NCBI GenBank assembly: GCA_003599255.1
Contig: QZJF01000017.1
Location: 113,278-177,277, forward strand
DNA from: a candidate division WWE3 bacterium
Lineage (GTDB): Bacteria > Patescibacteriota > WWE3 > UBA101185 > UBA10185
Length of the DNA: 64,000 nt
Reading direction: 5' to 3'
The position numbers and the translations under genes were made by a program. Positions 4,906 through 57,405 of this stretch are shown one piece after another; position 1 is the first letter of the stretch; every line of letters starts with the position of its first letter. The notes under the pieces were generated by a model that saw only the letters and a list, made by a program, of their open reading frames with translations, searched no databases and was not told where the DNA came from.

Positions 4906-5317
4906 TACACAGCAAGCGCAAAAAGGATTTAAAACATTTTTACTTACACTTTCTATATCCCTTATTATATTCAGTGTTATCTATTATGTGCTGACGAATC
5001 CCTCTTTTAACAAATCCGGCCTTAGCGCAGACATTGAAGACGAACAAGCTGTTTTAATAGAAGAGGAAACTGTGTTCGGAGAATTAGCGAGTCAAAAGAT
5101 GGATGTTCCACAGAGGGCGGTTTTGGCCGGTGCGGATGAAACCGAGGAAACCACACAGGGTACAGCAGCAGTACCGGACAGTGGAACTTTTGAAGTGACT
5201 GTGGGTCTAATTTTATCGGGAATTACTTTTTTGACGGGTTTGTATGTGATCATGCGCGATCCGAGAAAAATGGCTCTTATTGGATTTGAGCGTAGGATCT
5301 TTAAAGATCTGGATTAA
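4898..5317 (+). CDS. Putative sortase substrate: small surface protein with N-terminal anchor/prepilin-like segment and C-terminal sorting signal (VPDSG motif + TM helix + RDPRK tail)
   Basis: The N-terminus (KGFKTFLLTLSISLIIFSV) is pilin-like but lacks Glu5. The C-terminus (VPDSGTFEVTVGLILSGITFLTGLYVIMRDPRK) has the tripartite architecture of LPXTG-type sorting signals. It lies convergent with and adjacent to a sortase gene. Confidence 0.4.
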   Translation: MNSTQQAQKGFKTFLLTLSISLIIFSVIYYVLTNPSFNKSGLSADIEDEQAVLIEEETVFGELASQKMDVPQRAVLAGADETEETTQGTAAVPDSGTFEVTVGLILSGITFLTGLYVIMRDPRKMALIGFERRIFKDLD

Positions 5318-9351: not shown

Positions 9352-9577
9352 CGGTGGGACATATAGTTTGTAATTTTTTTATGTCCAGCTTGTTAATTCT
9401 GGGGTCCAGTTCGACGGAAAAGCCGATGCCTTTGTCCCCCCTGCCTCTCAGTACTCTGATTAGGGAGCCCTCGAAGCCCACTTTTTGAAGTTGCCGCTGT
9501 GCTTCAAGTACGCAAAGTTCACAACCTATGCATTTATTTGGAAATGTTACTTTCAAAATCATTTTAAAATTATCCAA
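9305..9577 (-). CDS. Small ferredoxin-like 4Fe-4S protein
   Basis: CIGCELCVLEA (CxxCxxC) plus a distal ICPTG (CP) motif. Overlaps the pgk stop by 8 nt and the AOR-like gene by 47 nt, indicating translational coupling. Confidence 0.6.
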   Translation of the reverse strand: MDNFKMILKVTFPNKCIGCELCVLEAQRQLQKVGFEGSLIRVLRGRGDKGIGFSVELDPRINKLDIKKLQTICPTGVFTISEEDSDEFNQ

Positions 9578-10532
9578 GTGCTTCTATGCCTGGCAGGGTT
9601 TTCTTAACCAAGAATTCCAGCATGGATCCACCTCCTGTTGAAACGAAGCTGAACTTTTCCAAGAGTCCCACTCTGTTAGCAGCTGCCACAGTGTCTCCGC
9701 CTCCTATCAAAGAAAAACAATTTGGATTTCCTGTTATTGCCTCTGCGATGGACTTAGTACCTAAGAGATATTTATCTTTTTCGTAAAATCCCATGGGACC
9801 GGCCCATAAAACTGTTTTAGCTGTGCTTATGATATCCACATATTTGCGCACGGTTTCGGGACCTATATCTAACTGGTTTTCGGCATAGTCAAGGGGAAGT
9901 ATCAGATTTTGAGGTATTTCATCTGTCCAATCAAGTCCGATCTTTCCTCCTATTAAAACGTAATCCGCAAGCTGAATAAATTTTGAAACGGTGGGTTTTT
10001 TGCTTTCCAATTTTGCTCCCCCTATAACAACAACAAACGGTTTTTCAGGGGAGTCCAGTATTTTTGTAAGGTGTTGAATTTCTGATTCAAGTCTAAACCC
10101 CGCAAAAGCAGGAAGGATTTTCGGTAGTTGCGCAATAGAAGCGTGTCTCCTGTGCGAAGTTGAGAAATTTTCGTTTACATAAATATCTGCCTTATCTGCC
10201 AATTCCCGAGCGTATTGTTCGTCATTATTTTCTTCCCGTATGTCAAACCTCAGATTTTCCAGTAAAACATAACCGCTAGTTCCAAGCTGCGTGTCAAAAA
10301 AGCTTTTTAAATGTCTTGTACTCAATATATCGTCGACTTTACCGTGTGGGCTACCCATATGACCCCCGAAAATAGGAATACCCCCCTTTTCCACTATAAA
10401 CTTAGTGGTAGGTAGCAGGCCTTCCAGTCTGTATGTTTCTTTTATCACCCCATTTTCTATTGGGACGTCCAGGTCTGCTGCAACAAAGACCCTAGTTCCT
10501 ATTTGTATAGGTGCATCTTTAATGGATTTCAT
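9570..10532 (-). CDS. pgk: Phosphoglycerate kinase (compact form)
   Basis: RVFVAADLDVP near the N-terminus; LENLRFDIREE, GGGDT and STGGGSMLEFLVKKTLPGIEAL motifs. Short at 320 aa. Confidence 0.85.
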   Translation of the reverse strand: MKSIKDAPIQIGTRVFVAADLDVPIENGVIKETYRLEGLLPTTKFIVEKGGIPIFGGHMGSPHGKVDDILSTRHLKSFFDTQLGTSGYVLLENLRFDIREENNDEQYARELADKADIYVNENFSTSHRRHASIAQLPKILPAFAGFRLESEIQHLTKILDSPEKPFVVVIGGAKLESKKPTVSKFIQLADYVLIGGKIGLDWTDEIPQNLILPLDYAENQLDIGPETVRKYVDIISTAKTVLWAGPMGFYEKDKYLLGTKSIAEAITGNPNCFSLIGGGDTVAAANRVGLLEKFSFVSTGGGSMLEFLVKKTLPGIEALG

Positions 10533-35601: not shown

Positions 35602-36786
35602 TTACTCTGTCACTTCGACATAATCTGCAGAGACCCAGCCTTCTACTGTATCCGAAACCCTGATTTTTACCCAGCCTGTTGTTTCTTCCAGGACAGGATA
35701 ATCGGTGCCGACGTTCACACGAGCTATCTCGGTTCCGTTAAGGCCGGCAATGTCACGGACTCGCAGCCACCCGGTACCTGTTTCTATTACCTTTGCCTTT
35801 TTACCACCAATTCCTGCCGCGGTTTGAAATGTCTGCAATGTCGTCTTAGCTTCAGGAGTTAGCCCAGCCCCATCTGACATTCGCCCGAGATACGCTCCTT
35901 TATCAACGTCTTTGAAGTTTTTATAGTCGTCTTTGTTTTCTACAATATTGCCCTCGTTATCAAAGATATTTCCTTTAAAATCTAAGAAGTAATCAAATAA
36001 AGGTTCCTTATTTACGCCAAGATCAGCAATGCTTATTCCCCGGGTCTTGTTCCAGTAATATACTGCACTCGCCCAGCTTTGGGTGTCAGAGACAACGTTT
36101 ACATTGTCTGAGGAAAGATCGTATAAATTGTCGCTTCCTTCAAAAGCCCTTACCTTTGACGGCACAGGTACGGGAAATAGTTTCATAGAAATATTCAGAG
36201 TGTACCCTTTTTTAATGTTAATTCTCGCAGTTTGAGACTCATATCCCGGGAATTCAACCCGTAAATCATATTCACCTTCAGACAATTTGTCTGAAGAGTA
36301 AGGAGTATTATCAACTTCTGAATTATCAATAAATACCATTGCGTCAGATGGTTCGGACAATATTCTTATCACATTGTCTGATTTTTCCTTTTCAAACCAG
36401 AACAACTGGCCGGAAGAGAACATATCGGAAATGCCCAGATCCCGGAAAATCCCAACGGTGTGTATATATTTTTTGTCGTTGGGTATGAAATCAATGGTAG
36501 TTTCATATGTTCTTCCGCCTGCGGAAATGGTAATTTTATTCTCGCCCGGGGCGATTTCTTTGTTGCTATAGGGGGTTGTTCCTACCTTTTCTCCGTTTAG
36601 CGACACATCCGCTTCTGTGTTAAGTACATCTACAGTTAAGGCAGCTTTGCCTTTTAAGTTATCAAGATTCTTAAGGACCTCGGTTCCAAAGTAAATGACA
36701 AGACCTATTCCGGCAATAGCCAGTACATAAAGTATGATGTTAGAAAGCTTATTTGAATTGTTGTTTGAGATTGTTGATACAGACAT
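35602..36786 (-). CDS. PEGA-domain surface protein with C-terminal bacterial SH3 (SH3b) domain
   Basis: Start revised to the ATG at 36786; the track ORF extends to 36939 only by translating the antisense of a tRNA. N-terminal TM, repeated PEGA-like segments (SEPSDAMVFIDNSEVDNTPY, VEFPGYESQT), and a C-terminal GWLRVRDIAGLNGTEIARVNVGTDYPVLEETTGWVKIRV (SH3b-like). Confidence 0.6.
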   Translation of the reverse strand: MSVSTISNNNSNKLSNIILYVLAIAGIGLVIYFGTEVLKNLDNLKGKAALTVDVLNTEADVSLNGEKVGTTPYSNKEIAPGENKITISAGGRTYETTIDFIPNDKKYIHTVGIFRDLGISDMFSSGQLFWFEKEKSDNVIRILSEPSDAMVFIDNSEVDNTPYSSDKLSEGEYDLRVEFPGYESQTARINIKKGYTLNISMKLFPVPVPSKVRAFEGSDNLYDLSSDNVNVVSDTQSWASAVYYWNKTRGISIADLGVNKEPLFDYFLDFKGNIFDNEGNIVENKDDYKNFKDVDKGAYLGRMSDGAGLTPEAKTTLQTFQTAAGIGGKKAKVIETGTGWLRVRDIAGLNGTEIARVNVGTDYPVLEETTGWVKIRVSDTVEGWVSADYVEVTE

Positions 36787-36845
36787 TCCGCTAGTATATA
36801 AGGTATCATGTTGATGGTACAATATCAATTGTCCTTTGGGCACCC

Positions 36846-36919
36846 GGCCTGGTCGCCAAGTGGTAAGGCAAGGGTCTGCAAAACCCTTATCAGGGGTTCG
36901 ATTCCCCTCCAGGCCTCCA
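36846..36919 (+). tRNA. tRNA-Cys (anticodon GCA)
   Basis: 74-nt cloverleaf read by hand: acceptor GGCCTGG/CCAGGCC, D-arm GCC-AAGTGGTAA-GGC, anticodon stem AGGGT/ACCCT with loop CTGCAAA (anticodon GCA), T-arm AGGGG-TTCGATT-CCCCT, discriminator T, encoded CCA. Confidence 0.85.
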
Positions 36920-36962
36920 ATGTTTATCTTGTAAAACACGTATTATTACCTATAATAACAAC

Positions 36963-46042: not shown

Positions 46043-49000
46043 ATGCCGAAGAAAAATGTAATTAAAAAATCTGCCATGGTACCTACTGCGCTTATTGCGG
46101 GTGGCGCCGGTTTCATAGGGTCTCACTTATGCGAAGCACTTCTTTCACGTGGGGCACGTGTAATTGTTCTTGACAATTTCAACACCGGCAAAGAAATTCA
46201 TATAAATCACCTTTTGCAAAATCCTAATTTTGCCCTTTATAACGTCGATATAAATACTGGGCTTCCGCCCGAAATCGAAAGTGTGGATTACATATTTCAT
46301 CTGGCGGGATTAGAAGAATATCTATATAGCAAGGAAAGTGTGAACTTGAACTCGCTTCTGACCAATGCTCTCGGCACTAAAAACTTATTGGATCTTGCCC
46401 AGAGATCTCAAGCAAAATTCCTTTTGGTCTCCAGCATTGACGTATACGAAGGTAGGATGTCACAACTTGAACTCGAAGAATACTTCGGTAGCACAAAAAT
46501 TGATGAGAACAAGTACATGCTCACTGAGGCAAAGAGGTATGCCGAAGCGCTTGTTTGGGAGTATTACAAGAAAAATGATACGGACTTGAGAATTGTCCGG
46601 TTGCCGGAAATTTTTGGTCCCAGAATGGATTTGTCCGCCAGCGGCAGCTTGGGCATGTTTCTAAAAGACCTGATTGAGCATCGCGATATCACAGTTTACG
46701 GGGAGGGATCTAACAAGGAATATTACCTTTACATTACAGATGCGATTTCCGGGATTTTGAAGACATTGTTCGGCGATAAATCCAAGGGAAATATTTATTC
46801 GTTGGTCTGGAATGTTCCGACAACGGTTCTTCAACTTGCTTATGTTGTAAAATCTGTTGCCGATAGAGAAGTAAATATTGTATTTAAAAACAATACTTCG
46901 AAAGATAACTACAGACCGAATCCCAAAATACCAGACTCATTCAACCTCCGCCAGCTCGGTTGGGAACCACGCATGGATATAAAGGACGGAATAGTCAAGT
47001 CGCTAGAATATTTCGGATATAAACCAAACGCGCACAGTTTCAAACCGGCGGAACTGATTGAAAAAAAGACCTCAATCACTCAGGAGTTACCGAAAGAGGA
47101 AACAGGTGAGATTTTTACTTTGCAAGATGTAAAGGAACCAGAGAAGGAAATTGCAGTTCCGGTTCTTCACGAGATTTCCGAGCCCGCACCCCCGGCGGGC
47201 CCGTCCGAACCGGTTCAGTCGATCCAGAGCGCTCCGGTGACCGCTGAAAATCCTTACGGTAATCTTCAAAGTTTTCACACCGGACAGCCTGAGATAGCAG
47301 TGAAACAAAAACAAAAAATTAAGCTGCTGAATTTTGGAAAATTATTCTCAGTAAAAGTCTTAAGTATTTTCGGCGTATTGTTTTCGGCAATGCTAATATT
47401 TTTTGCTCTTCCCGGTGTACAGACATATTTCTATACCAGAGCAAGTATGAACTCAATGTCAGCACTGGCAACATCGGCCGGCCAACTCGATTCGGCGGGT
47501 GTACGGTCAAACGCACGCAGTTCTTATCAAAATCTTGTAAAAGCTAAAAATTCATTCGCCAATCTCAAGTGGTTCTTTTTAGTATCGGGAAAACAAAGCC
47601 AATTTGAAAGTATGGATAAACTTTATAGCTCGTTGGCTTACTTCTCAAAATCCGGATATCAGATGGCGGAGACCATAGAACCGTTTGAAAATCTTTGGGA
47701 AGTTGTGCGTCCGGACACGGCGGAGGAACTCGATCCCGCGAGCTTTGAAAGTGTTAAATCCAATGTAGATCAGGCAAAAAACACTTTCCAGCTTGCCCTG
47801 GCTGATTTTAAGCAGGTTAACATTCAGGATTTGCCCGTACAAGTCAGGGAAAAAGCTGTTGAATATCAGAAAGTTTTAGACATAACTTCGAAAGGTTTAG
47901 ATATGGCCGCTCCTGTGCTTTCTTCTTTTCCAAACATATTGGGTGCGGATGAATCTAAAAAATACATGATCCTGTTTCAAAACTCTAACGAAATAAGACC
48001 TACCGGTGGATTCATCGGGTCATATGGTTTGTTGACTTTTGAAAAGGGAAAAATAAAAGATCTATTGATAGACGATATATACAATCCGGATGGACAAATA
48101 GAATTGCGGAATATAAATGTTGCACCCCCTGAACAAATTAAAGAATTTCTTAACGAAGAAAGATTGTATATAAGAAATGCAAATTGGGATCCGGATTTTC
48201 CGGTCTCAGCCAATACGATTTCTGATCTTTATTTTAAAGTAACAGGAGAGAGTCTCGACGGGGTTATCGCAGTTGATCTATATTTTGTTCAGAATATTCT
48301 AAAAGCTACCGGGCCAATATTTTTAACTGCCTATAATGAAGAAATTAATGCCGAAAATCTTTATGAACGGGCTGAGTTTCACAGCGAGTTCAATTACGAG
48401 AACGGTTCGGACAGCAAACGATCTTTTCTGACTGTTTTAGGAAGCAAGCTTCTTGAAAAAATATTCTCGTTATCAAGAGAACAACTTCCGCAGCTATTTA
48501 CCGAAATGGGGTACGCACTCAATGACAGACATTTACTAATAACGCTGGCAAACGACCCCCTAAACGCTTTATTGGAGGAACAGCATTGGAATGGAGGTGT
48601 TGTTGACACAACAAGTGATTATCTCTATGTGGTAAATGCAAATGTGGGCGGAACCAAAGCAAATTATTATGTAAAAAATAAAATGAATTACCACGTGAAG
48701 TCTCTAACCAGGGATGGACTATTGAGAGGGGTTCTCGTTTTGGAATACGTACATACCGGTACAGACGATGCTTGGCCTGGGGGACCTTATGAAAACTATG
48801 TTAGAGTGTTGACCCAGGAAGGATCCAAGTTAACAGGTGCGACATTGAAAGTAAACGATGGAGAGGAAAAAGATGTTCTAAATGAAATAAGGGTATCTAC
48901 TTTGAGTAAGTATAATGTTTTTGGCACAAGTTTTACGCTTAATCCGACTGAAAAAATAACCCTGACAATAGAATATGATTTGCCTGCAGCATTCACATTG

Positions 49001-49198
49001 ACTAAGGAGCAAAAAGAATACGCATTGTATTGGCAGAAACAATCCGGGACTCATCATGACGAATATGAATTTTCGTTTGACGTGCCGTTCGGTTTTGAGA
49101 TCTCAACAACCACGGAAGGTTTAGTTAGGGAGGATGGTACGTTAAAGTCCATTGGGTCTCTTAATGAAGACAAAAAGTTTTATGCTAAACTTCAGTGA
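46043..49198 (+). CDS. Giant fusion protein: N-terminal NAD-dependent sugar epimerase/dehydratase (UDP-glucuronate decarboxylase-like) + Pro-rich linker + TM helix + ~600-aa extracytoplasmic domain of unknown function
   Basis: Residues 15-330 carry GGAGFIGSHL (Rossmann), YSKES-type and Y..AK catalytic positions typical of extended SDRs. Then a PAPPAGPSEPVQSIQSAPV linker, a TM helix (LFSVKVLSIFGVLFSAMLIFFAL), and a large external domain with a conserved-looking QNSNEIRPTGGFIGSYG segment. Confidence 0.6.
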   Translation: MPKKNVIKKSAMVPTALIAGGAGFIGSHLCEALLSRGARVIVLDNFNTGKEIHINHLLQNPNFALYNVDINTGLPPEIESVDYIFHLAGLEEYLYSKESVNLNSLLTNALGTKNLLDLAQRSQAKFLLVSSIDVYEGRMSQLELEEYFGSTKIDENKYMLTEAKRYAEALVWEYYKKNDTDLRIVRLPEIFGPRMDLSASGSLGMFLKDLIEHRDITVYGEGSNKEYYLYITDAISGILKTLFGDKSKGNIYSLVWNVPTTVLQLAYVVKSVADREVNIVFKNNTSKDNYRPNPKIPDSFNLRQLGWEPRMDIKDGIVKSLEYFGYKPNAHSFKPAELIEKKTSITQELPKEETGEIFTLQDVKEPEKEIAVPVLHEISEPAPPAGPSEPVQSIQSAPVTAENPYGNLQSFHTGQPEIAVKQKQKIKLLNFGKLFSVKVLSIFGVLFSAMLIFFALPGVQTYFYTRASMNSMSALATSAGQLDSAGVRSNARSSYQNLVKAKNSFANLKWFFLVSGKQSQFESMDKLYSSLAYFSKSGYQMAETIEPFENLWEVVRPDTAEELDPASFESVKSNVDQAKNTFQLALADFKQVNIQDLPVQVREKAVEYQKVLDITSKGLDMAAPVLSSFPNILGADESKKYMILFQNSNEIRPTGGFIGSYGLLTFEKGKIKDLLIDDIYNPDGQIELRNINVAPPEQIKEFLNEERLYIRNANWDPDFPVSANTISDLYFKVTGESLDGVIAVDLYFVQNILKATGPIFLTAYNEEINAENLYERAEFHSEFNYENGSDSKRSFLTVLGSKLLEKIFSLSREQLPQLFTEMGYALNDRHLLITLANDPLNALLEEQHWNGGVVDTTSDYLYVVNANVGGTKANYYVKNKMNYHVKSLTRDGLLRGVLVLEYVHTGTDDAWPGGPYENYVRVLTQEGSKLTGATLKVNDGEEKDVLNEIRVSTLSKYNVFGTSFTLNPTEKITLTIEYDLPAAFTLTKEQKEYALYWQKQSGTHHDEYEFSFDVPFGFEISTTTEGLVREDGTLKSIGSLNEDKKFYAKLQ

Positions 49199-49216: not shown

Positions 49217-50818
49217 ATGCCTTTAGCTGATTTACCACAAACAAATAAACAGCACGCGGTCCCTCAAAACATAATGGATGTTGAATTCAAGCTGATAGGG
49301 GATTTGACGATGAGACAATTTGCTTATCTGATGATTTGCGGCGGTATTAGTTATTTGGCCGCAGTCTCCGTAATAGGATTGTTCAAATGGCCTATTGTGG
49401 TGTTTTTTACATTACTGGGTTTAGGACTGGCTTTTGTTCCGATACAGGAAAGAGGTCTGGACGAATGGATAGTCAACTTTTTTAAAGCAATATATTCACC
49501 TACACAACGGATATGGCGAAAAGAGCCTTCGGTGCCTTCCGCGTTTATGTACGAAAATATTCAGTTAGTACGTCAGGAAATGATAACGCTGGCACCGACA
49601 TCCAGCAGAAGAAAACTGGAAGATTATTTGGAATACCAGCTTAAAGAGGAAAAAGAAGACCCTCTTGATATTCCGGAGAAGGAGTACATTATGAAAGTAA
49701 GGGAAATGGTAGGTATTATAGAGCCTGCGGAGCCTGCTGTTTCAGTTACATATGAGGAAGAGGAAGTGCAGGAAGTTGAAGAGCCCTCTGCTTTACCGCC
49801 GCAGGAACAACCTCAGTTCCAAGGAGAACCTCAAAAGCCAGGTGAGGAAACAAAACCCGAAAAACCGATAGTTCAAAAACCGGAACCGGCTTCTGATGAA
49901 AAGAAAAAAACTCCGGAAGAATTTGAAAAGAAATCTCACAGGATTAAAAGAGCGCGTGAGAGAGAAGCAAGAAGACAGCAAAGCGTTTCGGTAACACCGC
50001 TGACTCCGGATATGCATTCCGGAAGAAAGTTTGTAAACCTTCTGCCGTATGGCGGGGAACTCATTCTACCGATTCGTGGCGAAAAAGTATTACAAACTTC
50101 CGAACAGTTGGAGATTGAGGATGATATTCAGGAAAAAGCCGACAAACTTCAGAAACTTCTCGAACAAATAAAAGGCAGCGGTGCTATTAAGAAAGAAATT
50201 ACACCGGAGGTCCGGGTAGAACCCGAAAAGCTGGATGTTCAGCAAGGCGGAGAAGTCAATGTCGAAGCAGTTGAGGTAATAGAAGGTTTGAAACAAGAAA
50301 AGGATAGACTTTCCCAGGAGATCGAAAATCTTAGGATATCTAAAGAAACCGAGACTACTCCGAGTGTGGCAGAAGCAAAAGAAGAAATGATCAGGAGACT
50401 TCAGGCTGAGAAAGAAAAGACCCAATCTGAGTACGAGTCCCTGCAAAGACAGATTCTTGATTTACAAAATAAACTTAAAGAAAAACAAGAATTCGATTCC
50501 GGTCCCCAGGCCCCTTCAAAACCTGTGTATGCAAAAATACAGCCATTAACAAATAGGCCAAATGTGGTTTCGGGGGTTGTTAAGAAACAGGACGGAACCG
50601 TACTTGAGGGTGTATTATTAATCATTAAGAATCAAAAAGGAGAGGCGGTTAGGGCTTTGAAGTCAAATACCTTAGGACAGTTTACTCTTACAACGCCTTT
50701 ATCTAACGGAGTTTATACGGTAGAAGTTAGCTCTAATAATGGCACTGCATCCTTTGATATAATTTCTGTAGAGGCAAAAGGAGAAATAATCCCTCCAATT
50801 GAATTGGTGGGCAAATAA
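49217..50818 (+). CDS. PrgI/VirB3-like membrane protein with a long coiled-coil/Pro-Glu-rich extension and C-terminal carboxypeptidase-regulatory-like beta domain
   Basis: Residues 20-110 (MDVEFKLIGDLTMRQFAYLMICGGISYLAAV... two TM helices ...IYSPTQRIW) resemble the PrgI family of Gram-positive conjugation systems. These are followed by an E/P/K-rich segment, heptad-like coiled coils, and a C-terminal VVSGVVKKQDGTVLEGVLLIIKNQKGEAV...GVYTVEVSS segment. Confidence 0.5.
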   Translation: MPLADLPQTNKQHAVPQNIMDVEFKLIGDLTMRQFAYLMICGGISYLAAVSVIGLFKWPIVVFFTLLGLGLAFVPIQERGLDEWIVNFFKAIYSPTQRIWRKEPSVPSAFMYENIQLVRQEMITLAPTSSRRKLEDYLEYQLKEEKEDPLDIPEKEYIMKVREMVGIIEPAEPAVSVTYEEEEVQEVEEPSALPPQEQPQFQGEPQKPGEETKPEKPIVQKPEPASDEKKKTPEEFEKKSHRIKRAREREARRQQSVSVTPLTPDMHSGRKFVNLLPYGGELILPIRGEKVLQTSEQLEIEDDIQEKADKLQKLLEQIKGSGAIKKEITPEVRVEPEKLDVQQGGEVNVEAVEVIEGLKQEKDRLSQEIENLRISKETETTPSVAEAKEEMIRRLQAEKEKTQSEYESLQRQILDLQNKLKEKQEFDSGPQAPSKPVYAKIQPLTNRPNVVSGVVKKQDGTVLEGVLLIIKNQKGEAVRALKSNTLGQFTLTTPLSNGVYTVEVSSNNGTASFDIISVEAKGEIIPPIELVGK

Positions 50819-51521
50819 TATGGCGGAAAAGATTGTATCTACATCGCAAGATCACTTGGATATACTTGAAATCAAGAATGATATGGTAGTTTTGAAAAAT
50901 GGGGTGGTTTGTGCTGTTCTGCAGACTACGGCGGTTAACTTTGATCTCCTTTCTGAAATCGAACAAGACGCAATTATTGCCGCGTTTTCTATGCTGCTTA
51001 ACTCAATAACATTTCCGGTCCAAGTAGTGTTGCGATCTAAAAAACTCGACATCTCAAAATATATCGAAAAAATACAGAGAGTAGAAAGCAAAATCAGCGA
51101 TCCTTTAATGAAACATCAAGCTGAGGCATACAGGAAGTTTGTTCAGGAAGTTATAAGACAGAACGATGTTCTTGATAAAAAATTCTATGTGGTTGTTCCT
51201 TCGGGTGGGGGAGTTGACGGAGACCCAAACAGCGGTGCCTTTGATTGGCTCGCACGCCTTGCGGGTACACATAATAAGAGGATTGATGTAAATGTAGATA
51301 AAACCCTTAAAGACGCATCAATTCAGTTAGTTCCAAAAGTAGATCACGTCATAAAAGAGTTTAATAGAATAGGCGTCAGATCCAGGCAACTGACAACCCA
51401 GGAGTTAGTGGAAATTTATTTTGATATTTACAATCCAAGCAGTATTCATGGACAAAGAATCCGAACAAATATAGATGATTATACGACGGCGGTTGTAAAT
51501 CCGGCGATTATTGAGGAATAA
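50799..51521 (+). CDS. VirB4/TraE N-terminal-domain-like protein (possibly a detached first segment of the downstream ATPase)
   Basis: HLDILEIKNDMVVLKNGVVCAVLQTTAVNFDLLSEIEQDAIIAAFSMLLNSITFPVQV resembles the N-terminal segment of Gram-positive VirB4 homologues. The stop lies 2 nt before the next ATG, in another frame. Confidence 0.45.
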   Translation: MNWWANNMAEKIVSTSQDHLDILEIKNDMVVLKNGVVCAVLQTTAVNFDLLSEIEQDAIIAAFSMLLNSITFPVQVVLRSKKLDISKYIEKIQRVESKISDPLMKHQAEAYRKFVQEVIRQNDVLDKKFYVVVPSGGGVDGDPNSGAFDWLARLAGTHNKRIDVNVDKTLKDASIQLVPKVDHVIKEFNRIGVRSRQLTTQELVEIYFDIYNPSSIHGQRIRTNIDDYTTAVVNPAIIEE

Positions 51522-51523
51522 GA

Positions 51524-53938
51524 ATGGCAAAAAAGAAATTTAATTTATTTACAATGTTCAAAAAAAATAAACCCGTGGAAGGTCAGGAAGGCTCTCCGGA
51601 AGGAGCTACTTCCGGTGGAAAAACGCCTGCACAGATCCTCGCCGAAGGGATGGTTAATGTACGCGATATCATTGCGCCATCTGCGATGGAAATTGACTTT
51701 AATCATGTAAAGATCGGAAACACTTTTTACAGAACTCTTTTTGTCTCAGGGTACCCTAGGTTTGTTGGTGCCAACTGGATGTCTCCCGTCATAAATTTTG
51801 ATCACTCTTTGGACATTTCGATGTTTTATTATCCGGTTAAATCCAAGATGATTCTCGATGACCTTAGAAAGAAAATTACCGAGTTGGAAGCAACTATAAT
51901 GACCACCAGGGAAAAAGGGAGAATAATTGACCCTGTTGTTACCGCAGCATTGGAAGATGCTAATGCTCTTCAAGAACAGTTGGTCAAGGGTGTTGAAAAA
52001 TATTTTAAATTTTCCTTTTATATAACTATACCCGCGGCTTCTCAGGAGGAACTTGAAACGGTTACAGCCAGGCTGGAATCCACATTGGGTTCGCTGCTGT
52101 TAATCTCGAAAACAGCTTCGCTCCAAATGGAAGAAGCATTTCAGTCTACTATTCCTGCGGGATTGGACAAGCTTTTGATTACACGAAACATGGATACTAC
52201 CAGTTTGGCTACCACTTTTCCTTTCACTTCTTCGGACCTTACCATGGAGGAGGGAATTATGTACGGAATCAATCGACACAATGGTTCCCTTGTTATTTTC
52301 GAGCGGTTCTCAATGGAAAACGCGAACACAGTTGTCTTTGCGAAATCCGGTTCAGGTAAATCTTATTTCGTTAAATTAGAAGCTTTGCGACTAATGGTTT
52401 TTGGTGCGGAGGTCATGATCATTGACCCGGAGGAGGAATACAGATCTTTGTGTGACGCCGTCGGCGGCAATTATATAGACTTTTCGGCTAATTCACCTGC
52501 TAAAATTAACCCTTTTGACTTGTCGGGAATTGCAGTCGAGGGCGAGAACGAACTTGGCCAGAAACTTATTGCGTTAATTACGTTGTTTAAACTGATGTTG
52601 GGAGGTTTAACTCCTACCGAAGAAGCAATTCTGGACCGTGCACTTATTGAAACTTACAGAATAAAGGGTATTACCACAGATCCGGATACGCAGTCTACAA
52701 AAGAGCCTCCGGTTATGGAAGATCTGTACAAGATACTTTTGGGAAGTGATGAACCTGAAGCCAGGAGCATGGCAGAGAGACTGGAAAAATTCATTAAAGG
52801 TTCAATGACCGGTATTTTTGATGCCCAATCCAATATTGATTTAAACAGCAAGATGACCGTTTTCTCTACCAAAAATCTTGAAGAAGCATTGAGACCCATC
52901 GCGTTTTATATGATCCTCGATTTTATTTGGACAAGAATCAGAAAGGATCTAAGAAAGAGGATTTTGATTGTTGAAGAGGCCTGGTATCTTATGCAGAACG
53001 AAGATAGTGCCCGCTTTATTTACGGTATAGCAAAGAGAGCAAGAAAATATTATCTAGGATTAACTACGATTTCACAGGATGTTGACGATTTCTTAACGTC
53101 CGAGTACGGCAAGGCGATTGTTACCAACTCATCAATTCAGGTTTTGCTTAAACAGCACCCTGCGGCAATTGATAAAGTAGCGGAAACATTTTATTTATCG
53201 GAGGGAGAAAAAAGATTACTTCTTTCGGCTGCAGTAGGTGAAGGGCTTTTCTTTGCGGGGGCAAATCACGTGGCAATCAAGGTTATGGCTTCCGATGCGG
53301 AGCATAAGCTGATTACAACAAACCCGGAGGAGATTTTAAGACTCAAAGCGGAAGGGAAGATTCAGTCGAAGCAGCCAACAAAACCTGTATACAAACCCTA
53401 TACCCCACCGTCAGATCCCGGTAAATATACAACTTATGATTCTGAAGGTAATGTAAGACCAGAGTTTAAACCCGGTGCCGTTCCTCCGACACCCGCCCCG
53501 ATTCCCGCTCAACCAAAGCCGGAAGAACAAACGGTACAAAATCAGAATAAGGACACCGTTGAATCTGTAGCGCAACCTTTACCGAAAGAGGAAGAGACTC
53601 AGGAAGAAAAAATGCCCACAGCGGAACAGATTTTAAGTTCCGTTCAAGCAACAAAGGCAGAGAATTCACAACCTCCTGCCACTTCTCCTCAGGAGAACAA
53701 GAGTACTCCGAATCAGGGAACTCAGGGTAATGAACAAATAATAAAAAGTACGTTGACCGGTGAATCGATGCAGAAGAACCCACCGCAGGTTCCTCCGGCC
53801 AAACCTTCCTGGTTAAATTCCTCAAATCAACAGGTTGTCCAGAACAAGCCGCAGGAACAGCAGAGTCCTACTAACGAACAAAACAAAGAATCGGAAAAGA
53901 ACATGGATTCTCCTCAGGGTACGATAAGTCTCACCTAG
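51524..53938 (+). CDS. VirB4/TrbE/PrgJ-family type IV secretion ATPase with ~200-aa Pro/Gln/Asn-rich C-terminal tail
   Basis: Walker A (VVFAKSGSGKSYFV) and Walker B (ILIVEEAWYLMQ) are present. The N-terminal region (GNTFYRTLFVSGYPRFVGANWMSPV) is like the VirB4 membrane-proximal domain. Residues from about 600 to 804 are low-complexity (PTKPVYKPYTPPSDPGK...QPKPEEQTVQNQNK...). Confidence 0.75.
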   Translation: MAKKKFNLFTMFKKNKPVEGQEGSPEGATSGGKTPAQILAEGMVNVRDIIAPSAMEIDFNHVKIGNTFYRTLFVSGYPRFVGANWMSPVINFDHSLDISMFYYPVKSKMILDDLRKKITELEATIMTTREKGRIIDPVVTAALEDANALQEQLVKGVEKYFKFSFYITIPAASQEELETVTARLESTLGSLLLISKTASLQMEEAFQSTIPAGLDKLLITRNMDTTSLATTFPFTSSDLTMEEGIMYGINRHNGSLVIFERFSMENANTVVFAKSGSGKSYFVKLEALRLMVFGAEVMIIDPEEEYRSLCDAVGGNYIDFSANSPAKINPFDLSGIAVEGENELGQKLIALITLFKLMLGGLTPTEEAILDRALIETYRIKGITTDPDTQSTKEPPVMEDLYKILLGSDEPEARSMAERLEKFIKGSMTGIFDAQSNIDLNSKMTVFSTKNLEEALRPIAFYMILDFIWTRIRKDLRKRILIVEEAWYLMQNEDSARFIYGIAKRARKYYLGLTTISQDVDDFLTSEYGKAIVTNSSIQVLLKQHPAAIDKVAETFYLSEGEKRLLLSAAVGEGLFFAGANHVAIKVMASDAEHKLITTNPEEILRLKAEGKIQSKQPTKPVYKPYTPPSDPGKYTTYDSEGNVRPEFKPGAVPPTPAPIPAQPKPEEQTVQNQNKDTVESVAQPLPKEEETQEEKMPTAEQILSSVQATKAENSQPPATSPQENKSTPNQGTQGNEQIIKSTLTGESMQKNPPQVPPAKPSWLNSSNQQVVQNKPQEQQSPTNEQNKESEKNMDSPQGTISLT

Positions 53939-53946
53939 ATTAAAGA

Positions 53947-55056
53947 TTAAATCTGCATAGGCATTATTATATGTATGAAGTTCTCGTGTGCGTCTGAGAG
54001 AAGTAGGCATGGGGAGATATTTCCGTTAGTTCTAAAGTGAATTCTCTCGGTTTTTATGTTGTTCAGGTAGTCCAAAAGATATCTGGAACTAAAGGCAATT
54101 TCCAGCAGATCCCCCTCTATTTCCGCTCCCAGTTCACTAATGTGTTCCCCGGCCTCTTCTGCAAGAGAAGAGATTCTAATTAAGTTTTCTTCGGGGTCAA
54201 ATCTGACTTTAATCGCATTATTGCCCTCTTTAGCAAACACATTTGTTAATTTTACGGCTTCAACAAACTCGTCGGTTGAAAAAGAGGCGCTTAAGACTTT
54301 TTCTGAAGGGATAATTTTTTTATAATCAGGATACTGTCCGTCCAAGATTCTCGTGGCAACAGTAGTGTCCTCCGAACTAAACAAAGCAAGATTCTCACCT
54401 TCATTAAGAGCGAATTTTATTTTTTCCTGGGAGCCGGCAAAGATTTTGCTTACTTCAAGCATGGTTCTTGCCGGTATAACTGCCGAAAAATTTCCGACGG
54501 AGCTTTCAATTTTTAGTATCTTTTCTGAAAGTCTAAAACCGTCAGTGGATGCAATTGTGAGTACTCCTTCCTGATAATTCAAGAATATTCCGGTAAAAAT
54601 CGGCCTACTCTCGTCATTTCCGGAAGCGAATGCAACATATGCAACGTCATCACCGAATTCCTTAGGATCAAGTTCAAAATATGAAACATCTTCCGGAAAC
54701 ACAGGCAATTCCGGATATTCATCGGCGCTGATACCGTTGAATTTAGATTTGGTTTTTTCCGATGTTATGTGGAGTACATCGTGGTTGAGGGATGCTTTGA
54801 TTGTCCCAGGTCTTAATGTGGAGACAAAGTCTTTTATCAGTTTTGCAGGTATTGTAACGCTACCCTCTTCTTCGACCGAGCACGGGACATAGGTTGTAAC
54901 GGCGGTTTCAAGATTGGTTGCGGCGAGTTTGAGTCTGCCGTTTTCCGCAACAAATAAAATATTCGAAAGTATAGGAAGGGAACCCTTGTTAGGTACTGCA
55001 CGGCTGACGATCTGCAGACCTTTTTCTAAATTTTCCTGTAGGCATGTAAATTTCAT
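53947..55056 (-). CDS. dnaN: DNA polymerase III beta subunit (sliding clamp)
   Basis: MKFTCLQENLEKGLQIVSRAV...LPILSNILFVAENGRLKLAATNLE and the three-domain length (369 aa). Confidence 0.85.
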   Translation of the reverse strand: MKFTCLQENLEKGLQIVSRAVPNKGSLPILSNILFVAENGRLKLAATNLETAVTTYVPCSVEEEGSVTIPAKLIKDFVSTLRPGTIKASLNHDVLHITSEKTKSKFNGISADEYPELPVFPEDVSYFELDPKEFGDDVAYVAFASGNDESRPIFTGIFLNYQEGVLTIASTDGFRLSEKILKIESSVGNFSAVIPARTMLEVSKIFAGSQEKIKFALNEGENLALFSSEDTTVATRILDGQYPDYKKIIPSEKVLSASFSTDEFVEAVKLTNVFAKEGNNAIKVRFDPEENLIRISSLAEEAGEHISELGAEIEGDLLEIAFSSRYLLDYLNNIKTERIHFRTNGNISPCLLLSDAHENFIHIIMPMQI

Positions 55057-55514
55057 GACGTTTTATTTTTTGGTTTTAGGTGAACTCTTCTGTTGCGTCC
55101 CTCACCTTGACTCTCTGATATTACATCGTCGTATTCGGAAATTAAAGTGTGAACTTGACGTCTTTCCCAGGGGTTCATATACGGAAGAATCACCTCGCTT
55201 TGAAAGAATCTTACTTTATCAATGGATCTTCGCGCTATGCTGTGTAATCTTTCAATTCTTTGACTGTTGTAATCATTAATGTCTAACAAAAGTACGGGCC
55301 ACTCGTTACTCTTTTTGTAGTAAATATGGGTAAGAATGCTTTGAAGTGCATCCAGCGATTGTCCTCGATACCCGATGAGAAAACTCAAATCGTCTCCTTG
55401 AATACTAATTTTTATGTTTTCATCACCATCTACCGATATGTCCGTTTGCGGTTTGATATCAAAATGGTGGAGCAAGTCGTCCAGTATTGATTTAACTAAT
55501 TCTTTTTTATCCAT
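55053..55514 (-). CDS. jag: Jag/KhpB-like RNA-binding protein (KH + R3H domains)
   Basis: KH-like GYRGQSLDALQ and the R3H motif region (MNPWERRQVH). Lies immediately downstream of yidC. Confidence 0.75.
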   Translation of the reverse strand: MDKKELVKSILDDLLHHFDIKPQTDISVDGDENIKISIQGDDLSFLIGYRGQSLDALQSILTHIYYKKSNEWPVLLLDINDYNSQRIERLHSIARRSIDKVRFFQSEVILPYMNPWERRQVHTLISEYDDVISESQGEGRNRRVHLKPKNKTS

Positions 55515-56291
55515 TTATTTTGCAAATTTCAGCTTTTTTAACAGAGGGGTTAATCCGCCCCATCCGCTGCTAAAATAATTTTGTACTATTGTAAATAGTG
55601 TTGTAACTACTATATAAAGCACAACACCCGCGGGCAGAGTAATGCCTATTATCACATTCATGACCGGCATCATATATAAAGATTGCTGTTGCATTTGAAA
55701 TGCGATGTCATCCGATTTGGGCTCGGTTGCTTTTGCCGCTTTCTCTGCTTTCTCAACGTAGGGCAGTGTCATCTTTGAGGCTATGAACTGCAGTATACCC
55801 GATAAAACCGCCAAAATAAAGTAAGGGTCGGGTTTTGACAAATCCATATATAGAAAATTTGTATTTACGGTTTCTCCGGCACTGATCTTGAACTGATCCG
55901 AATATATTTTACTGTTGATTAAGGAATAATCCCCATTAATTGTGAAAAGGCGAATTACATTGAACAACGCTATAAGAACAATAAGCATGGCAATTTGAGA
56001 CAGACATCCTGATGCCGGATTAATCCCGTGTTTTTTAAACAATGCCATCTGCATCTCAGCCATCTTTTGCTTGTCGTGTTTGTATTTTTTCTTCAGTTCA
56101 TCTAGTTCAGGCTGAAGATCCCTCTGTTTCTTCATGCTTTTAAGGGAAGGGTTCATAACAGGAACAAGAATAAACCTTATTAATATTGTTAAAACTATGA
56201 TTGCTACACCGAGATCTCCTGCCACTCTATAAAGTACAACAAGAACATTTAACATCGGATTCACAAGTAATGTGTTCCAGAGTAATGACAT
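55515..56291 (-). CDS. yidC: Membrane protein insertase YidC/Oxa1 (short Gram-positive/CPR type)
   Basis: LVPVMNPSLKSMKKQRDLQPELDELKKKYKHDKQKMAEMQMALFKKHGINP and five TM helices. rnpA-yidD-yidC-jag synteny. Confidence 0.8.
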   Translation of the reverse strand: MSLLWNTLLVNPMLNVLVVLYRVAGDLGVAIIVLTILIRFILVPVMNPSLKSMKKQRDLQPELDELKKKYKHDKQKMAEMQMALFKKHGINPASGCLSQIAMLIVLIALFNVIRLFTINGDYSLINSKIYSDQFKISAGETVNTNFLYMDLSKPDPYFILAVLSGILQFIASKMTLPYVEKAEKAAKATEPKSDDIAFQMQQQSLYMMPVMNVIIGITLPAGVVLYIVVTTLFTIVQNYFSSGWGGLTPLLKKLKFAK

Positions 56292-56312
56292 AACTTTACC
56301 ATTGTAGGACTT

Positions 56313-56528
56313 TTACTCTACAGGATCAAATCCTCCTTCAGATAATGGATTACATCTTAAGATGCGGTACCCTCCCATTATGCTTCCTTTTAGTACGCCA
56401 TATTTTTCAATAGCCTCATAAGTATAATCAGAACAACTCGGCACAAAACGGCAGGTATGTATTCCGAAGTTAACGGGTGACAAGAATTTCTTGTAAAGTT
56501 TTATTAATGTCAGTGCTAATTTCCGCAT
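56313..56528 (-). CDS. yidD: Membrane protein insertion efficiency factor YidD
   Basis: [19 protein letters not shown]...[19 protein letters not shown] matches the YidD/DUF37 signature. Start taken at the internal Met (56528); the track's start at 56567 overlaps rnpA more extensively. Confidence 0.7.
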
Positions 56529-56829
56529 AACTTTTTTCCAGAATACCCTTTTTAGCGTAGATGACAAGCCATAGATTCTCAGGCACTTCTATATCAGAAT
56601 TTTTCAGCATATTCCTGATAGACTCTCTGATTAATCTTTTGGGTCTGTTTCGTTTTACTGCTTTGTTATGTACCGAGTTAGGCACGACTATGCCTATTTT
56701 TAAAGGCCCCTTATAATTCCTTGGAACAACGGCAAATACAGTAATAAACTCCCCGGTAAATTTTTTGCCGTATTTTTTTGTAACGTTAAATTCAAAGTTA
56801 GAGGTAAGTCTGTTAGATTTTTTTAGCAT
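56470..56829 (-). CDS. rnpA: RNase P protein component
   Basis: 119-aa basic protein with [13 protein letters not shown]...[24 protein letters not shown], the RnpA RNR-motif region. Positioned between rpmH and yidD. Confidence 0.75.
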
Positions 56830-56849
56830 CAGGGTGTGCTGCGCGAGGC

Positions 56850-57002
56850 TTATTTGCCGTTATACTGTACAACCAAGGCCTTTCGCCCCTTTTGACGTCG
56901 TCTTTTTAATACATTCTTTCCGCCCGGACTCTGCATTTTCTTAAGAAATCCGTGCTTCTTTACTCTTTTTCTTTTTTTTGGTTGCCAGGTTCTTTTAGGC
57001 AT
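56850..57002 (-). CDS. rpmH: 50S ribosomal protein L34
   Basis: [43 protein letters not shown] matches the bL34 consensus (MKRT.QPS..KR.R.HGFR.RM.T..GR.VL..RR.KGRK.L). Only the last 50 codons of the 158-aa track ORF are real. Confidence 0.75.
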
Positions 57003-57084
57003 AACAAGGTTGATCTTAGAGCAAAAAGTCCGAAGCGTCAACCCCGGCGTTAACATTTCCGGTAAATATATTATAATCTCACGT

Positions 57085-57405
57085 ATGATTAAGTTTGATG
57101 ATTTTGCAAAGGTGGACATCCGGGCCGGAAAAGTTCTGATTTGTGAAAAGGTTGAAAAATCCAATAAATTGCTCCGAATGGTAGTTGACTTCGGAGAACT
57201 GGGTGAAAAACAGATTCTGACCGGTTTGGGCGAATTTATCCAACCGGAAGAAATTAGCGGAATAACAGCACTCTTTGTGGTAAATCTGGAGCCAAGAAAG
57301 CTGATGGGATTCGAGTCGGAAGGCATGATAATGGGTACAGATGACGAAACTCCAAAAATCGTGCAGGCTCCTCAAGGTACTTTGCCGGGTACACGAGTAA
57401 TTTAA
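57085..57405 (+). CDS. tRNA-binding domain protein (Trbp111/CsaA-like)
   Basis: [42 protein letters not shown]...[22 protein letters not shown] matches the OB-fold tRNA-binding domain (MetRS C-terminal/EMAP-like). Start chosen at the ATG at 57085; the upstream part of the track ORF overlaps rpmH. Confidence 0.6.

What the first reader, a model, noticed from the sequence alone, without database searches (positions are those of the whole stretch)
49217..50818. PrgI/VirB3-like protein expanded to 533 aa with a coiled-coil, Pro/Glu-rich and beta-sandwich extension
PrgI/VirB3 proteins are normally about 100-130 aa with two TM helices. Here the conserved N-terminal module is followed by more than 400 extra residues: an EEEEVQEVEEP / PQKPGEETKPEKPIVQKPEP low-complexity linker, long heptad coiled coils, and a C-terminal carboxypeptidase-regulatory-like beta domain (VVSGVVKKQDGTVLEGV...GVYTVEVSS). 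A VirB3-like component fused to an extracellular-looking stalk and adhesin-like domain is, to my knowledge, not a described architecture.
Basis: partly seen in the sequence, partly recalled or inferred. Interest (0 to 1): 0.6.

Follow-up and report, generated by a model that had tools for sequence, protein, structure and literature searches.

The report
Oversized VirB3-like anchor of Patescibacterial T4SS
This gene encodes the normally tiny membrane anchor (PrgI/VirB3) of a type IV secretion-like machine in an ultra-small WWE3 (Patescibacteria) bacterium, enlarged about five-fold by a conserved tail that most probably hangs into the cytoplasm rather than projecting from the cell; the fusion is real, but it is a variant of a machine already described.

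Summary
ORF 49217-50818 (+) encodes a 533-aa protein. Its N-terminus is a PrgI module (PF12666, above Pfam's threshold). After that come an acidic/Pro-rich linker, a helical hairpin and a C-terminal CnaB/transthyretin-type beta-sandwich.

It is not a merged gene. In 70 of 80 related genome loci one ORF joins the PrgI module to the beta-sandwich. There are at least 677 50%-identity clusters at E<=1e-30.

The genome is candidate division WWE3. The gene is the first of a tight PrgI-TrsD-VirB4 module next to dnaN. That is the chromosomal Patescibacteria T4SS described in 2023-2025, whose PrgI is essential in Southlakia epibionticum and is already 300 aa there.

There are four conserved, length-fixed blocks (aa 1-75, 76-165, 259-320, 447-533) plus a less conserved helical hairpin (347-430), separated by hypervariable linkers.

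The "extracellular stalk/adhesin" reading is not supported. There is one tight two-helix hairpin, no third TM segment in 119 of 120 relatives, and no signal peptide or LPXTG. VirB3 termini are cytoplasmic. The tail is therefore most likely a cytoplasmic accessory arm on the split VirB4 ATPase; its function is only inferred.

I rate it a new variant of a known kind, of moderate interest.

The parts
49217..50818 (+). Whole gene: extended PrgI/VirB3-family protein, 533 aa (identical to hypothetical protein C4561_04175 of a candidate division WWE3 bacterium)
   Evidence: ORF and translation. Exact database match P0001. Pfam PrgI plus CarboxypepD_reg.
49217..49318 (+). aa 1-34: pre-TM N-terminal segment (HAVPQNIMDVEFKLIGDLTMRQF), the most conserved part of the protein; inferred cytoplasmic contact for TrsD/VirB4
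   Evidence: 80% mean pairwise identity across 120 relatives. Lies within the Pfam PrgI match 15-99. VirB3 alpha1 and its wrap around the VirB4 N-domain are described for R388; applying that role here is inference.
49319..49441 (+). aa 35-75: two transmembrane helices forming a hairpin with a one-residue loop (F-K57-W-P)
   Evidence: Kyte-Doolittle 19-residue windows >1.5 occur only at window starts 34-60. AF2 helices 32-51 and 57-73 have pLDDT >90.
49442..49711 (+). aa 76-165: conserved, length-invariant post-TM helical block (invariant LAPTSSRR 125-132, DPLDIPE 148-154). Only its first ~24 residues belong to the Pfam PrgI model.
   Evidence: 65% mean identity and length 89-90 in all relatives. 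AF2 helices 81-93, 115-125, 128-141, 154-165 at pLDDT 58-82.
49712..49990 (+). aa 166-258: hypervariable Glu/Pro/Lys/Gln-rich disordered linker ending in a basic cluster (KKKTPEEFEKKSHRIKRAREREARRQQ)
   Evidence: 19% identity and length 52-345 aa across relatives. pLDDT <50. No DNA tandem repeat.
49991..50176 (+). aa 259-320: conserved 62-aa motif (P-[IL]-TPDMHSGRxFxNLLPxxGELxLPIRGE) followed by an amphipathic helix 295-320; a candidate partner-binding element
   Evidence: 57% identity and length 61-64. The first half has low pLDDT in the monomer and the helix has pLDDT about 90. No homology to TrsD or the VirB4 N-domain.
50255..50506 (+). aa 347-430: helical (coiled-coil-like) antiparallel hairpin
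   Evidence: AF2 H347-378 and H382-427 at pLDDT about 90-95. Weak profile hits to keratin/GCN4 coiled coils. 38% identity. Heptad signal weak.
50555..50815 (+). aa 447-533: C-terminal CnaB/transthyretin/CarboxypepD_reg-type beta-sandwich
50820..51521 (+). TrsD-like protein (233 aa from ATG 50820): a free-standing homologue of the first part of the VirB4 N-terminal domain
   Evidence: NCBIfam VirB4_plasma profile positions 109-233 at 1e-10 and TrsD/TraD at 2e-7. Start codon read. Homologues are 230-237 aa, 70-91% identical, with PF26593.
51524..53938 (+). VirB4-like ATPase (804 aa, CD1110 family) with a ~200-aa Pro/Gln-rich C-terminal tail
   Evidence: NCBIfam NF045971 380.5 bits (cut-off 325). 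Pfam P-loop_TraG. Tail composition.

Best explanation
The gene encodes the VirB3/PrgI subunit of the chromosomal, origin-proximal type IV secretion-like machine of a WWE3 (Patescibacteria) bacterium. Its N-terminal 75 residues do what VirB3 does elsewhere. A two-helix membrane hairpin, with cytoplasmic flanks, anchors the VirB4 ATPase to the membrane. In this lineage VirB4 is split into a TrsD-like N-domain protein and the ATPase proper. The stoichiometry is presumably one anchor per ATPase subunit, six per machine. The other ~430 residues are a lineage-specific addition that stays on the cytoplasmic side. First comes a fixed-length helical block (76-165) directly after the membrane. Then two hypervariable disordered tethers carry a conserved 62-residue motif, a helical hairpin and a CnaB/transthyretin-type beta-sandwich. 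I infer that these tethered modules act as accessory arms around or beneath the VirB4/TrsD hexamer. They would dock on the ATPase or recruit a partner or cargo in a system that has no coupling protein, VirB11 or relaxase nearby. Shown here: identity, conservation, module boundaries, operon context and same-side topology of the flanks. Inferred: that this side is the cytoplasm (by homology with VirB3 and the positive-inside rule), and all of the arm's function.
For: PrgI profile hit above threshold in the query and in 31 of 31 relatives. The operon is tight: PrgI-ext stop at 50818, TrsD ATG at 50820, VirB4 ATG at 51524. VirB4 is of the Gram-positive CD1110 type. The same order PrgI-ext, TrsD, VirB4, then convergent dnaN-jag-yidC, is seen in essentially every one of 80 species-level loci. 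This matches the published Patescibacteria T4SS of VirB4 + TrsD + PrgI near ori without a relaxase (PMC12102498). The PrgI homologue SEML1_0010 of S. epibionticum is essential and sits in the same PrgI-TrsD-VirB4 order (PMC10633639). On topology: there is a single hairpin with a one-residue loop, and no other segment with KD19>1.6 beyond residue 95 in 119 of 120 relatives. K+R counts are 2.0 (N flank), 1.0 (loop) and 2.0/4.9 (C flank, 15/30 residues). VirB3 has cytoplasmic N- and C-termini and wraps the N-domain of cytoplasmic VirB4 (PMC12857230; PMC9259494). Natural VirB3-VirB4 fusions exist. The hairpin flanks are the most conserved parts of the protein (80% and 65% identity), as expected if they contact the very conserved TrsD (70-91% identity). 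Purifying selection on the tail shows as length-fixed blocks at 57% identity separated by linkers at 18-19% identity whose length ranges 52-345 aa. VirB4's own cytoplasmic tail has the same low-complexity composition. The sandwich fold also occurs in cytoplasmic enzymes: 4v4c_B is the top Foldseek hit, and HIU hydrolases also match.
Confidence: 0.65

Rival explanations
1. The hairpin is inserted N-out/C-out and the tail is extracellular. The Pro/Glu-rich linker spans the wall, the coiled coil forms a stalk and the CnaB-like sandwich binds the wall or a host cell. This would supply the surface component that the minimal three-gene module otherwise lacks.
Against: This topology would leave a single residue (K57) in the cytoplasm, so nothing could bind the cytoplasmic TrsD/VirB4, which is the defining role of VirB3. 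There is no signal peptide and no LPXTG motif in the sequence (read directly). No third TM is found in 119 of 120 relatives. The positive-inside count favours N-in/C-in. A strongly basic cluster (aa 233-254) would have to be translocated. The identically composed VirB4 tail is cytoplasmic. The first-strand Lys that a CnaB isopeptide bond needs is not conserved (alignment). The MSCRAMM model hits are thousands of bits below their cut-offs.
Confidence: 0.2
2. The tail is evolutionary ballast. It would be a mostly disordered, non-specific spacer of the kind often seen in Patescibacterial proteins, with no function beyond that of the PrgI module.
For: About 160 residues have pLDDT below 50. Linker length and sequence are hypervariable. 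VirB4 in the same operon also carries a long low-complexity tail. PrgI-ext length and VirB4 length do not correlate (Spearman 0.18, p=0.22).
Against: Three blocks of the tail (76-165, 259-320, 447-533) are length-invariant and 57-65% identical in relatives whose linkers have diverged to 18-19% identity. 63 of 80 loci keep all blocks in one ORF. The family counts at least 677 clusters at E<=1e-30.
Confidence: 0.08
3. The ORF is an artefact: two genes (a small prgI and a separate surface or coiled-coil protein) merged by a sequencing or assembly error.
For: Three of 80 related loci show the reading frame split (L056, L064, L068).
Against: Those three splits lie in the linkers far downstream of the PrgI module, and each pair of pieces together still carries all blocks. 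70 of 80 independent assemblies have one ORF that joins the PrgI module to the beta-sandwich; 63 of these have all three tested blocks and 7 have a divergent motif. Six more run off a contig end. The exact protein is present in three public contigs, and a 92%-identical one comes from another source.
Confidence: 0.01

Closest known systems
PrgI of Enterococcus plasmid pCF10 / VirB3 (TrwM of R388, VirB3 of Agrobacterium)
   Same: Pfam PrgI profile match. Two-helix membrane hairpin. Gene placed immediately before the VirB4 gene(s). Presumed role as membrane anchor wrapping the VirB4 N-domain.
SEML1_0010, the 'PrgI family protein' of Southlakia epibionticum ML1 (Saccharibacteria)
   Same: Patescibacterial chromosomal T4SS. 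Same gene order PrgI, TrsD-like, VirB4. PF12666 at the N-terminus. It is also enlarged (903 nt = 300 aa) and essential for epibiotic growth (PMC10633639; PMC12102498).
   Different: It is about 230 aa shorter. The structure-based annotation there lists only small helical domains after the PrgI module and no beta-sandwich. I could not obtain its sequence, so homology of the two tails was not tested.
VirB3-VirB4 fusion proteins of some conjugative systems, and the actinobacterial SCO6880 family (NF042935)
   Same: The C-terminus of a VirB3-like hairpin continues into a large cytoplasmic polypeptide. 13 of 31 relatives give weak hits of the hairpin region to the N-terminus of the SCO6880 model, and the window's VirB4 hits its C-terminal part.
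   Different: Here the added sequence is not VirB4-derived: hhalign probability is below 1% against TrsD and the VirB4 N-domain. The SCO6880 hits are far below the curated cut-off (13 versus 60 bits).
'Extended' VirB6 subunits (for example Rickettsia and F-like systems)
   Same: A small inner-membrane T4SS subunit enlarged by big hydrophilic domains of unknown role (PMC12857230).
   Different: It is a different subunit family with a different topology and no sequence relationship.
CnaB / transthyretin-like / CarboxypepD_reg beta-sandwich domains
   Same: The fold of aa 447-533, and the family's apparent hallmark pattern, here T-N-x-L-G-x-F ... G-x-Y (hallmark recalled from my knowledge of the family, not tested here; alignment).
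   Different: The Pfam score is 1.2 bits under the gathering threshold for this sequence. The isopeptide-bond residues are not conserved. The context is probably cytoplasmic.

Membership tests
PrgI family (PF12666) / VirB3-like T4SS subunit | Sequence match to the family profile above the curated threshold | tested here: met
   31.1 bits against gathering score 27, aa 15-99 covering profile positions 2-90 of 91. 31 of 31 relatives match, best E 6e-11.
PrgI family (PF12666) / VirB3-like T4SS subunit | Two transmembrane helices forming a hairpin | tested here: met
   Hydropathy. AF2 helices 32-51 and 57-73 with pLDDT >90.
PrgI family (PF12666) / VirB3-like T4SS subunit | Gene directly adjacent to virB4 | tested here: met
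   PrgI-ext, then TrsD-like (a VirB4 N-domain homologue), then VirB4, with 1-2 nt gaps. Conserved in 80 loci.
PrgI family (PF12666) / VirB3-like T4SS subunit | Small size (about 10-15 kDa) with only short cytoplasmic extensions | tested here: not met
   533 aa here, and 397-890 aa in relatives, against 117 aa for PrgI.
PrgI family (PF12666) / VirB3-like T4SS subunit | Structural similarity to a solved VirB3 (TrwM) | tested here: inconclusive
PrgI family (PF12666) / VirB3-like T4SS subunit | Physical 1:1 binding to the VirB4 N-terminal domain | not testable with these tools
Patescibacteria chromosomal T4SS (MPF-FATA-like; PMC12102498) | VirB4 of the monoderm (FATA) type | tested here: met
   NF045971 CD1110-family VirB4 at 380.5 bits (cut-off 325).
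Patescibacteria chromosomal T4SS (MPF-FATA-like; PMC12102498) | Separate TrsD-like protein next to virB4 | tested here: met
   TrsD/TraD model at 2e-7 and VirB4_plasma N-part at 1e-10. PF26593 in homologues.
Patescibacteria chromosomal T4SS (MPF-FATA-like; PMC12102498) | Chromosomal location beside replication-origin genes, with no relaxase | tested here: met
   dnaN, jag, yidC, rnpA and rpmH lie immediately downstream. No relaxase or T4CP domain was found in any ORF of the window scanned.
Patescibacteria chromosomal T4SS (MPF-FATA-like; PMC12102498) | VirB6 and VirB2-like pilin genes near virB4 | tested here: not met
   None was detected by Pfam in the 64-kb window. The paper notes that VirB6 is scarce in some classes. 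The rest of the genome was not available.
Patescibacteria chromosomal T4SS (MPF-FATA-like; PMC12102498) | Required for epibiotic growth | not testable with these tools
   Shown only for S. epibionticum ML1.
CarboxypepD_reg (PF13620) / CnaB-transthyretin beta-sandwich | Profile match above the gathering score | tested here: inconclusive
   31.1 bits against 32.3 for this sequence, but 30 of 31 relatives match at E<=1e-3, best 8e-9.
CarboxypepD_reg (PF13620) / CnaB-transthyretin beta-sandwich | Seven-stranded prealbumin-like sandwich fold | tested here: met
Gram-positive surface adhesins / pilins (MSCRAMM, CnaB-containing) | Signal peptide, LPXTG sorting signal, and conserved isopeptide Lys/Asn(Asp)/Glu triad | tested here: not met
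   There is no hydrophobic N-terminal signal; the first hydrophobic stretch starts at aa 35. No LPxTG occurs in the sequence. The first-strand Lys is not conserved. SdrC/SdrD models score 10-11 bits against cut-offs of 1700-2500.
VirB3-VirB4 fusion proteins | The sequence following the VirB3 hairpin is homologous to the VirB4 N-domain | tested here: not met
   hhalign of blocks 76-165, 255-325 and 440-533 against TrsD and VirB4(1-270) alignments gives probabilities of 0.2-0.8%.

The most novel reading that the evidence does not exclude
Six tethered PrgI tails assemble into a cytoplasmic collar or cap around the split VirB4/TrsD hexamer. The conserved 62-aa motif would latch onto the ATPase. 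The helical hairpins and beta-sandwiches would form a gate or cargo receptor that replaces the missing coupling protein and VirB11. That would be a previously unseen way of building the cytoplasmic entrance or exit of a type IV machine, in a lineage where the machine may import host macromolecules.
Probability: 0.2. Interest if true: 0.7.

Novelty: new variant of a known kind. Interest (0 to 1): 0.4.

Why it matters
The Patescibacterial T4SS-like machine is essential for the epibiotic lifestyle in the one species tested. It lacks the usual DNA-transfer parts, and what it moves, and in which direction, is unknown. A VirB3 subunit that carries about 430 residues of conserved, modular, probably cytoplasmic sequence is a concrete handle on that question. 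It points to specific motifs (LAPTSSRR, DPLDIPE, TPDMHSGR...LPIRGE and the sandwich) for mutagenesis, pull-downs and multimer modelling. It also warns that beta-sandwich and Pro-rich features in these organisms should not automatically be read as surface structures. It does not reveal a new kind of system.

Tried and rejected
1. Profile search of the whole family against all PDB sequences gave only coiled-coil noise and a weak SdrD hit. Nothing matched blocks 1-165 or 259-320.
3. hhalign of the tail blocks against TrsD and the VirB4 N-domain showed no homology. I therefore rejected the idea that the tail is a remnant of a VirB3-VirB4 fusion.
4. tblastn of aa 1-110 against 72,556 plasmids found no match, so the link to plasmid PrgI exists at profile level only.
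5. The Foldseek afdb50 library was unavailable.
6. A search with the TrsD-like protein, meant to reach other Patescibacteria classes and read their PrgI lengths, returned only WWE3-type relatives in its top 120 listed hits. How widespread similar tails are outside WWE3 therefore rests on the single S. epibionticum data point.
7. Promoter and terminator scans and the tandem-repeat scan gave nothing above chance.
8. PrgI-ext length does not correlate with VirB4 length.
9. GC content is uniform across the locus, so there is no sign of recent acquisition.
11. The supplement of PMC12102498 lists the components but not protein lengths.
Full report
**1. Observation**

- Pfam places a PrgI domain (PF12666) at aa 15-99. 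The score is 31.1 bits, above the gathering score of 27.
- Pfam places a CarboxypepD_reg domain (PF13620) at aa 451-509. The score is 31.1 bits, just under the cut-off of 32.3.
- In a 31-member sample of the family, all 31 hit PrgI and 30 hit CarboxypepD_reg.
- The acidic and Pro-rich strings and the beta-domain strings are at aa 180-190, 205-224, 450-466 and 498-506.
- AlphaFold2 with a 120-sequence alignment gives a confident TM hairpin (H32-51, H57-73), a disordered stretch 166-292, a helix 295-320, a confident helical hairpin (H347-378/H382-427) and a confident beta-sandwich (445-533).
- The heptad signal in the single sequence is only marginal.

**2. Not an artefact, and a large family**

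The exact protein is public as hypothetical protein C4561_04175 from a candidate division WWE3 bacterium.
- The word-indexed search found 366 relatives, and this number is limited by the candidate cap. Nearly all are 480-700 aa and carry both Pfam domains.
- An exhaustive phmmer against 1.84 billion 50%-identity representatives found 2122 clusters at E<=1e-3, 1637 at E<=1e-10 and 677 at E<=1e-30.
- A scan of one genome per GTDB species found 118 genomes encoding a relative, and 80 loci were retrieved. Nearly all are labelled WWE3 or generically Patescibacteria/Saccharibacteria.
- Of the 80 loci, 63 have a single ORF (397-890 aa) containing the N-terminal block, the middle motif and the beta-sandwich.
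- Seven more loci have a single ORF with the N block and the sandwich but a divergent middle motif.
- Six loci run off a contig end. Three are split inside the linkers and not at the PrgI/extension junction. One is short.

**3. Context**

The gene is the first of a tightly packed, co-directional set.
- PrgI-ext stops at 50818.
- A TrsD-like protein of 233 aa starts at ATG 50820. It matches the first part of VirB4 models (VirB4_plasma profile positions 109-233 at 1e-10; TrsD/TraD at 2e-7).
- A VirB4 ATPase of the Gram-positive CD1110 type starts at 51524 (380.5 bits, cut-off 325).
- Convergent with these are dnaN, jag/khpB, yidC, rnpA and rpmH, which is a replication-origin-type neighbourhood.
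- The order PrgI-ext, TrsD, VirB4, then convergent dnaN-jag-yidC recurs in essentially all 80 loci.
- This is the chromosomal Patescibacteria T4SS described by Quinonero-Coronel et al. 2025 (PMC12102498). That system comprises VirB4, TrsD and PrgI/VirB3, often close to ori, usually without a relaxase.
- In Southlakia epibionticum the same gene string (SEML1_0010 PrgI, 0009, 0008 VirB4) is essential for epibiotic growth (PMC10633639).
- Pfam scans of the other ORFs in the window show ordinary chromosomal genes. No VirB6, VirB8, VirB1, pilin, coupling-protein or relaxase gene was detected.
- GC content is uniform across the locus.

**4. Anatomy of the family**

Alignments of 31 and 120 relatives and block statistics show a modular protein.

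| Residues | Module | Mean pairwise identity | Length across relatives |
|---|---|---|---|
| 1-34 | pre-TM segment | 80% | 34 (median) |
| 35-75 | TM hairpin | 55% | 40-42 |
| 76-165 | post-TM helical block | 65% | 89-90 |
| 166-258 | Glu/Pro/Lys-rich linker | 19% | 52-345 |
| 259-320 | motif plus helix | 57% | 61-64 |
| 321-346 | second linker | 18% | 8-118 |
| 347-430 | helical hairpin | 38% | 63-144 (median 84) |
| 447-533 | beta-sandwich | 57% | 73-89 (median 88) |

- The post-TM block contains the invariant LAPTSSRR and DPLDIPE motifs.
- The 62-residue motif reads P-[IL]-TPDMHSGRxFxNLLPxxGELxLPIRGE and is followed by an amphipathic helix.
- The 'extension' is therefore not just a stalk plus a domain. 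It holds three strongly constrained, length-fixed blocks on hypervariable tethers.
- None of the blocks is homologous to TrsD or the VirB4 N-domain (hhalign probability below 1%).
- None has a detectable relative among PDB sequences.

**5. The C-terminal fold**

- Many of the neighbours are Gram-positive pilins and adhesins.
- The top Foldseek hit, however, is a cytoplasmic enzyme subunit (pyrogallol transhydroxylase, 4v4c_B), and HIU hydrolases also match.
- The conserved residues appear to be the fold's own hallmarks (T-N-x-L-G-x-F, G-x-Y), judged from my knowledge of the family rather than tested here, so they need not mark a special site.
- The Lys needed for a CnaB isopeptide bond is not conserved.

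**6. Which side of the membrane?**

- The two TM helices are joined by a single residue (K57), so both flanks are on the same side.
- No other segment reaches TM-like hydrophobicity beyond residue 95 in 119 of 120 relatives. Whatever side the flanks are on, the whole tail is there too.
- The flanks are the best-conserved parts of the protein.
- In VirB3 the corresponding parts are cytoplasmic and wrap the N-domain of cytoplasmic VirB4, six copies per machine (PMC9259494; PMC12857230).
- Natural VirB3-VirB4 fusions require a cytoplasmic VirB3 C-terminus.
- K+R counts are 2.0 (N flank), 1.0 (loop) and 2.0/4.9 (C flank, 15/30 residues), which fits N-in/C-in.
- There is no signal peptide and no LPXTG motif.
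- The VirB4 ATPase of the same operon carries a 200-aa tail with the same Pro/Gln/Glu/Lys composition. That composition is therefore not a mark of exported segments here.
- I put the probability of a cytoplasmic tail at about 0.75. It is an inference, because no predictor or experiment was available. The extracellular bias of the fold is the main counter-argument.

**7. Mechanism**

- Shown: the protein is a VirB3/PrgI-family membrane hairpin encoded with a split VirB4, and it carries conserved modules on flexible tethers.
- Inferred from established VirB3 biology: residues 1-165 anchor TrsD/VirB4 to the membrane.
- Inferred and weakly supported: the motif, helical hairpin and sandwich act as cytoplasmic accessory arms. 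They would dock on the ATPase and/or recruit a partner or cargo in a module that has no coupling protein, VirB11 or relaxase nearby.
- Rivals are an extracellular stalk/adhesin (0.2), functionless ballast (0.08) and an assembly artefact (0.01).

**8. Comparison and novelty**

- By profile, hairpin and synteny, the protein is a member of the PrgI/VirB3 family. It fails the family's 'small size' feature.
- Its operon is the known Patescibacteria T4SS.
- Enlargement of PrgI is not unique to WWE3. The essential S. epibionticum PrgI is 300 aa with PF12666 at aa 5-90. No sandwich is reported there.
- The domain pair is auto-annotated in public databases. Neither the Patescibacteria T4SS paper nor the 2025 T4SS review discusses an extended PrgI, and further literature searches found nothing else.
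- I therefore rate it a new variant of a known kind, of moderate interest (0.4). It is a useful handle on an enigmatic essential machine, not a new system.

Noticed in passing
window 51524-53938 (+), especially aa ~600-804 (nt ~53321-53935): The VirB4 ATPase ends in a ~200-aa Pro/Gln/Glu/Lys-rich low-complexity tail. VirB4 length varies from 622 to 918 aa across WWE3 loci, so this tail is hypervariable, like the PrgI linkers. Its function is unknown.
   Followed up: partly
window 46043-49198 (+): A 1051-aa fusion of an N-terminal SDR sugar epimerase/dehydratase, a hydrophobic segment and a DUF4012 domain lies 18 nt upstream on the same strand. Together with the Wzz-like and RNase H genes, it is syntenic with the T4SS module in roughly 45 of 80 loci. 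It may be co-transcribed. Its link to the T4SS is unknown.
   Followed up: partly
window 50799-51521 (+): The mechanical ORF starts at TTG 50799 and overlaps the PrgI-ext stop. The likely real start is ATG 50820 (233 aa, the length seen in nearly all homologues). VirB4 is thus split into a TrsD-like N-part and the ATPase, as reported for Patescibacteria.
   Followed up: yes
window 53947-57326 (-): An origin-type gene string rpmH-rnpA-yidC-jag-dnaN lies on the minus strand, but no dnaA was found anywhere in the 64-kb window. The T4SS module abuts dnaN, with 8 nt between the convergent stops. The rpmH ORF (158 aa, with the L34 domain at 111-152) is clearly over-extended at its 5' end.
   Followed up: partly
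window 35602-36939 (-) and 36846-36919 (+): A PEGA + SH3 domain protein, with a weak CarboxypepD_reg hit, has a called GTG start that overlaps a tRNA-Cys gene on the opposite strand. The ORF start is probably over-called.
   Followed up: no
window 3564-6039: A weak PilO-like hit (4154-4726), flanked by two small ORFs without any family match and by a sortase gene (5314-6039, minus strand), may be part of a type IV pilus or surface-assembly cluster.
   Followed up: no
window 8479-9351 (-) and 9570-10532 (-): A 290-aa ORF carries only the N-terminal domain of aldehyde:ferredoxin oxidoreductase. The phosphoglycerate kinase ORF is short (320 aa) and matches the PGK model in three pieces. These may be truncated or divergent glycolysis-region genes.
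   Followed up: no
loci L056, L064, L068: In three related genomes the PrgI-ext reading frame is broken inside the variable linkers, yet the pieces together keep all blocks. These are probably frameshift or assembly errors in low-complexity DNA, but natural splitting was not excluded.
   Followed up: partly
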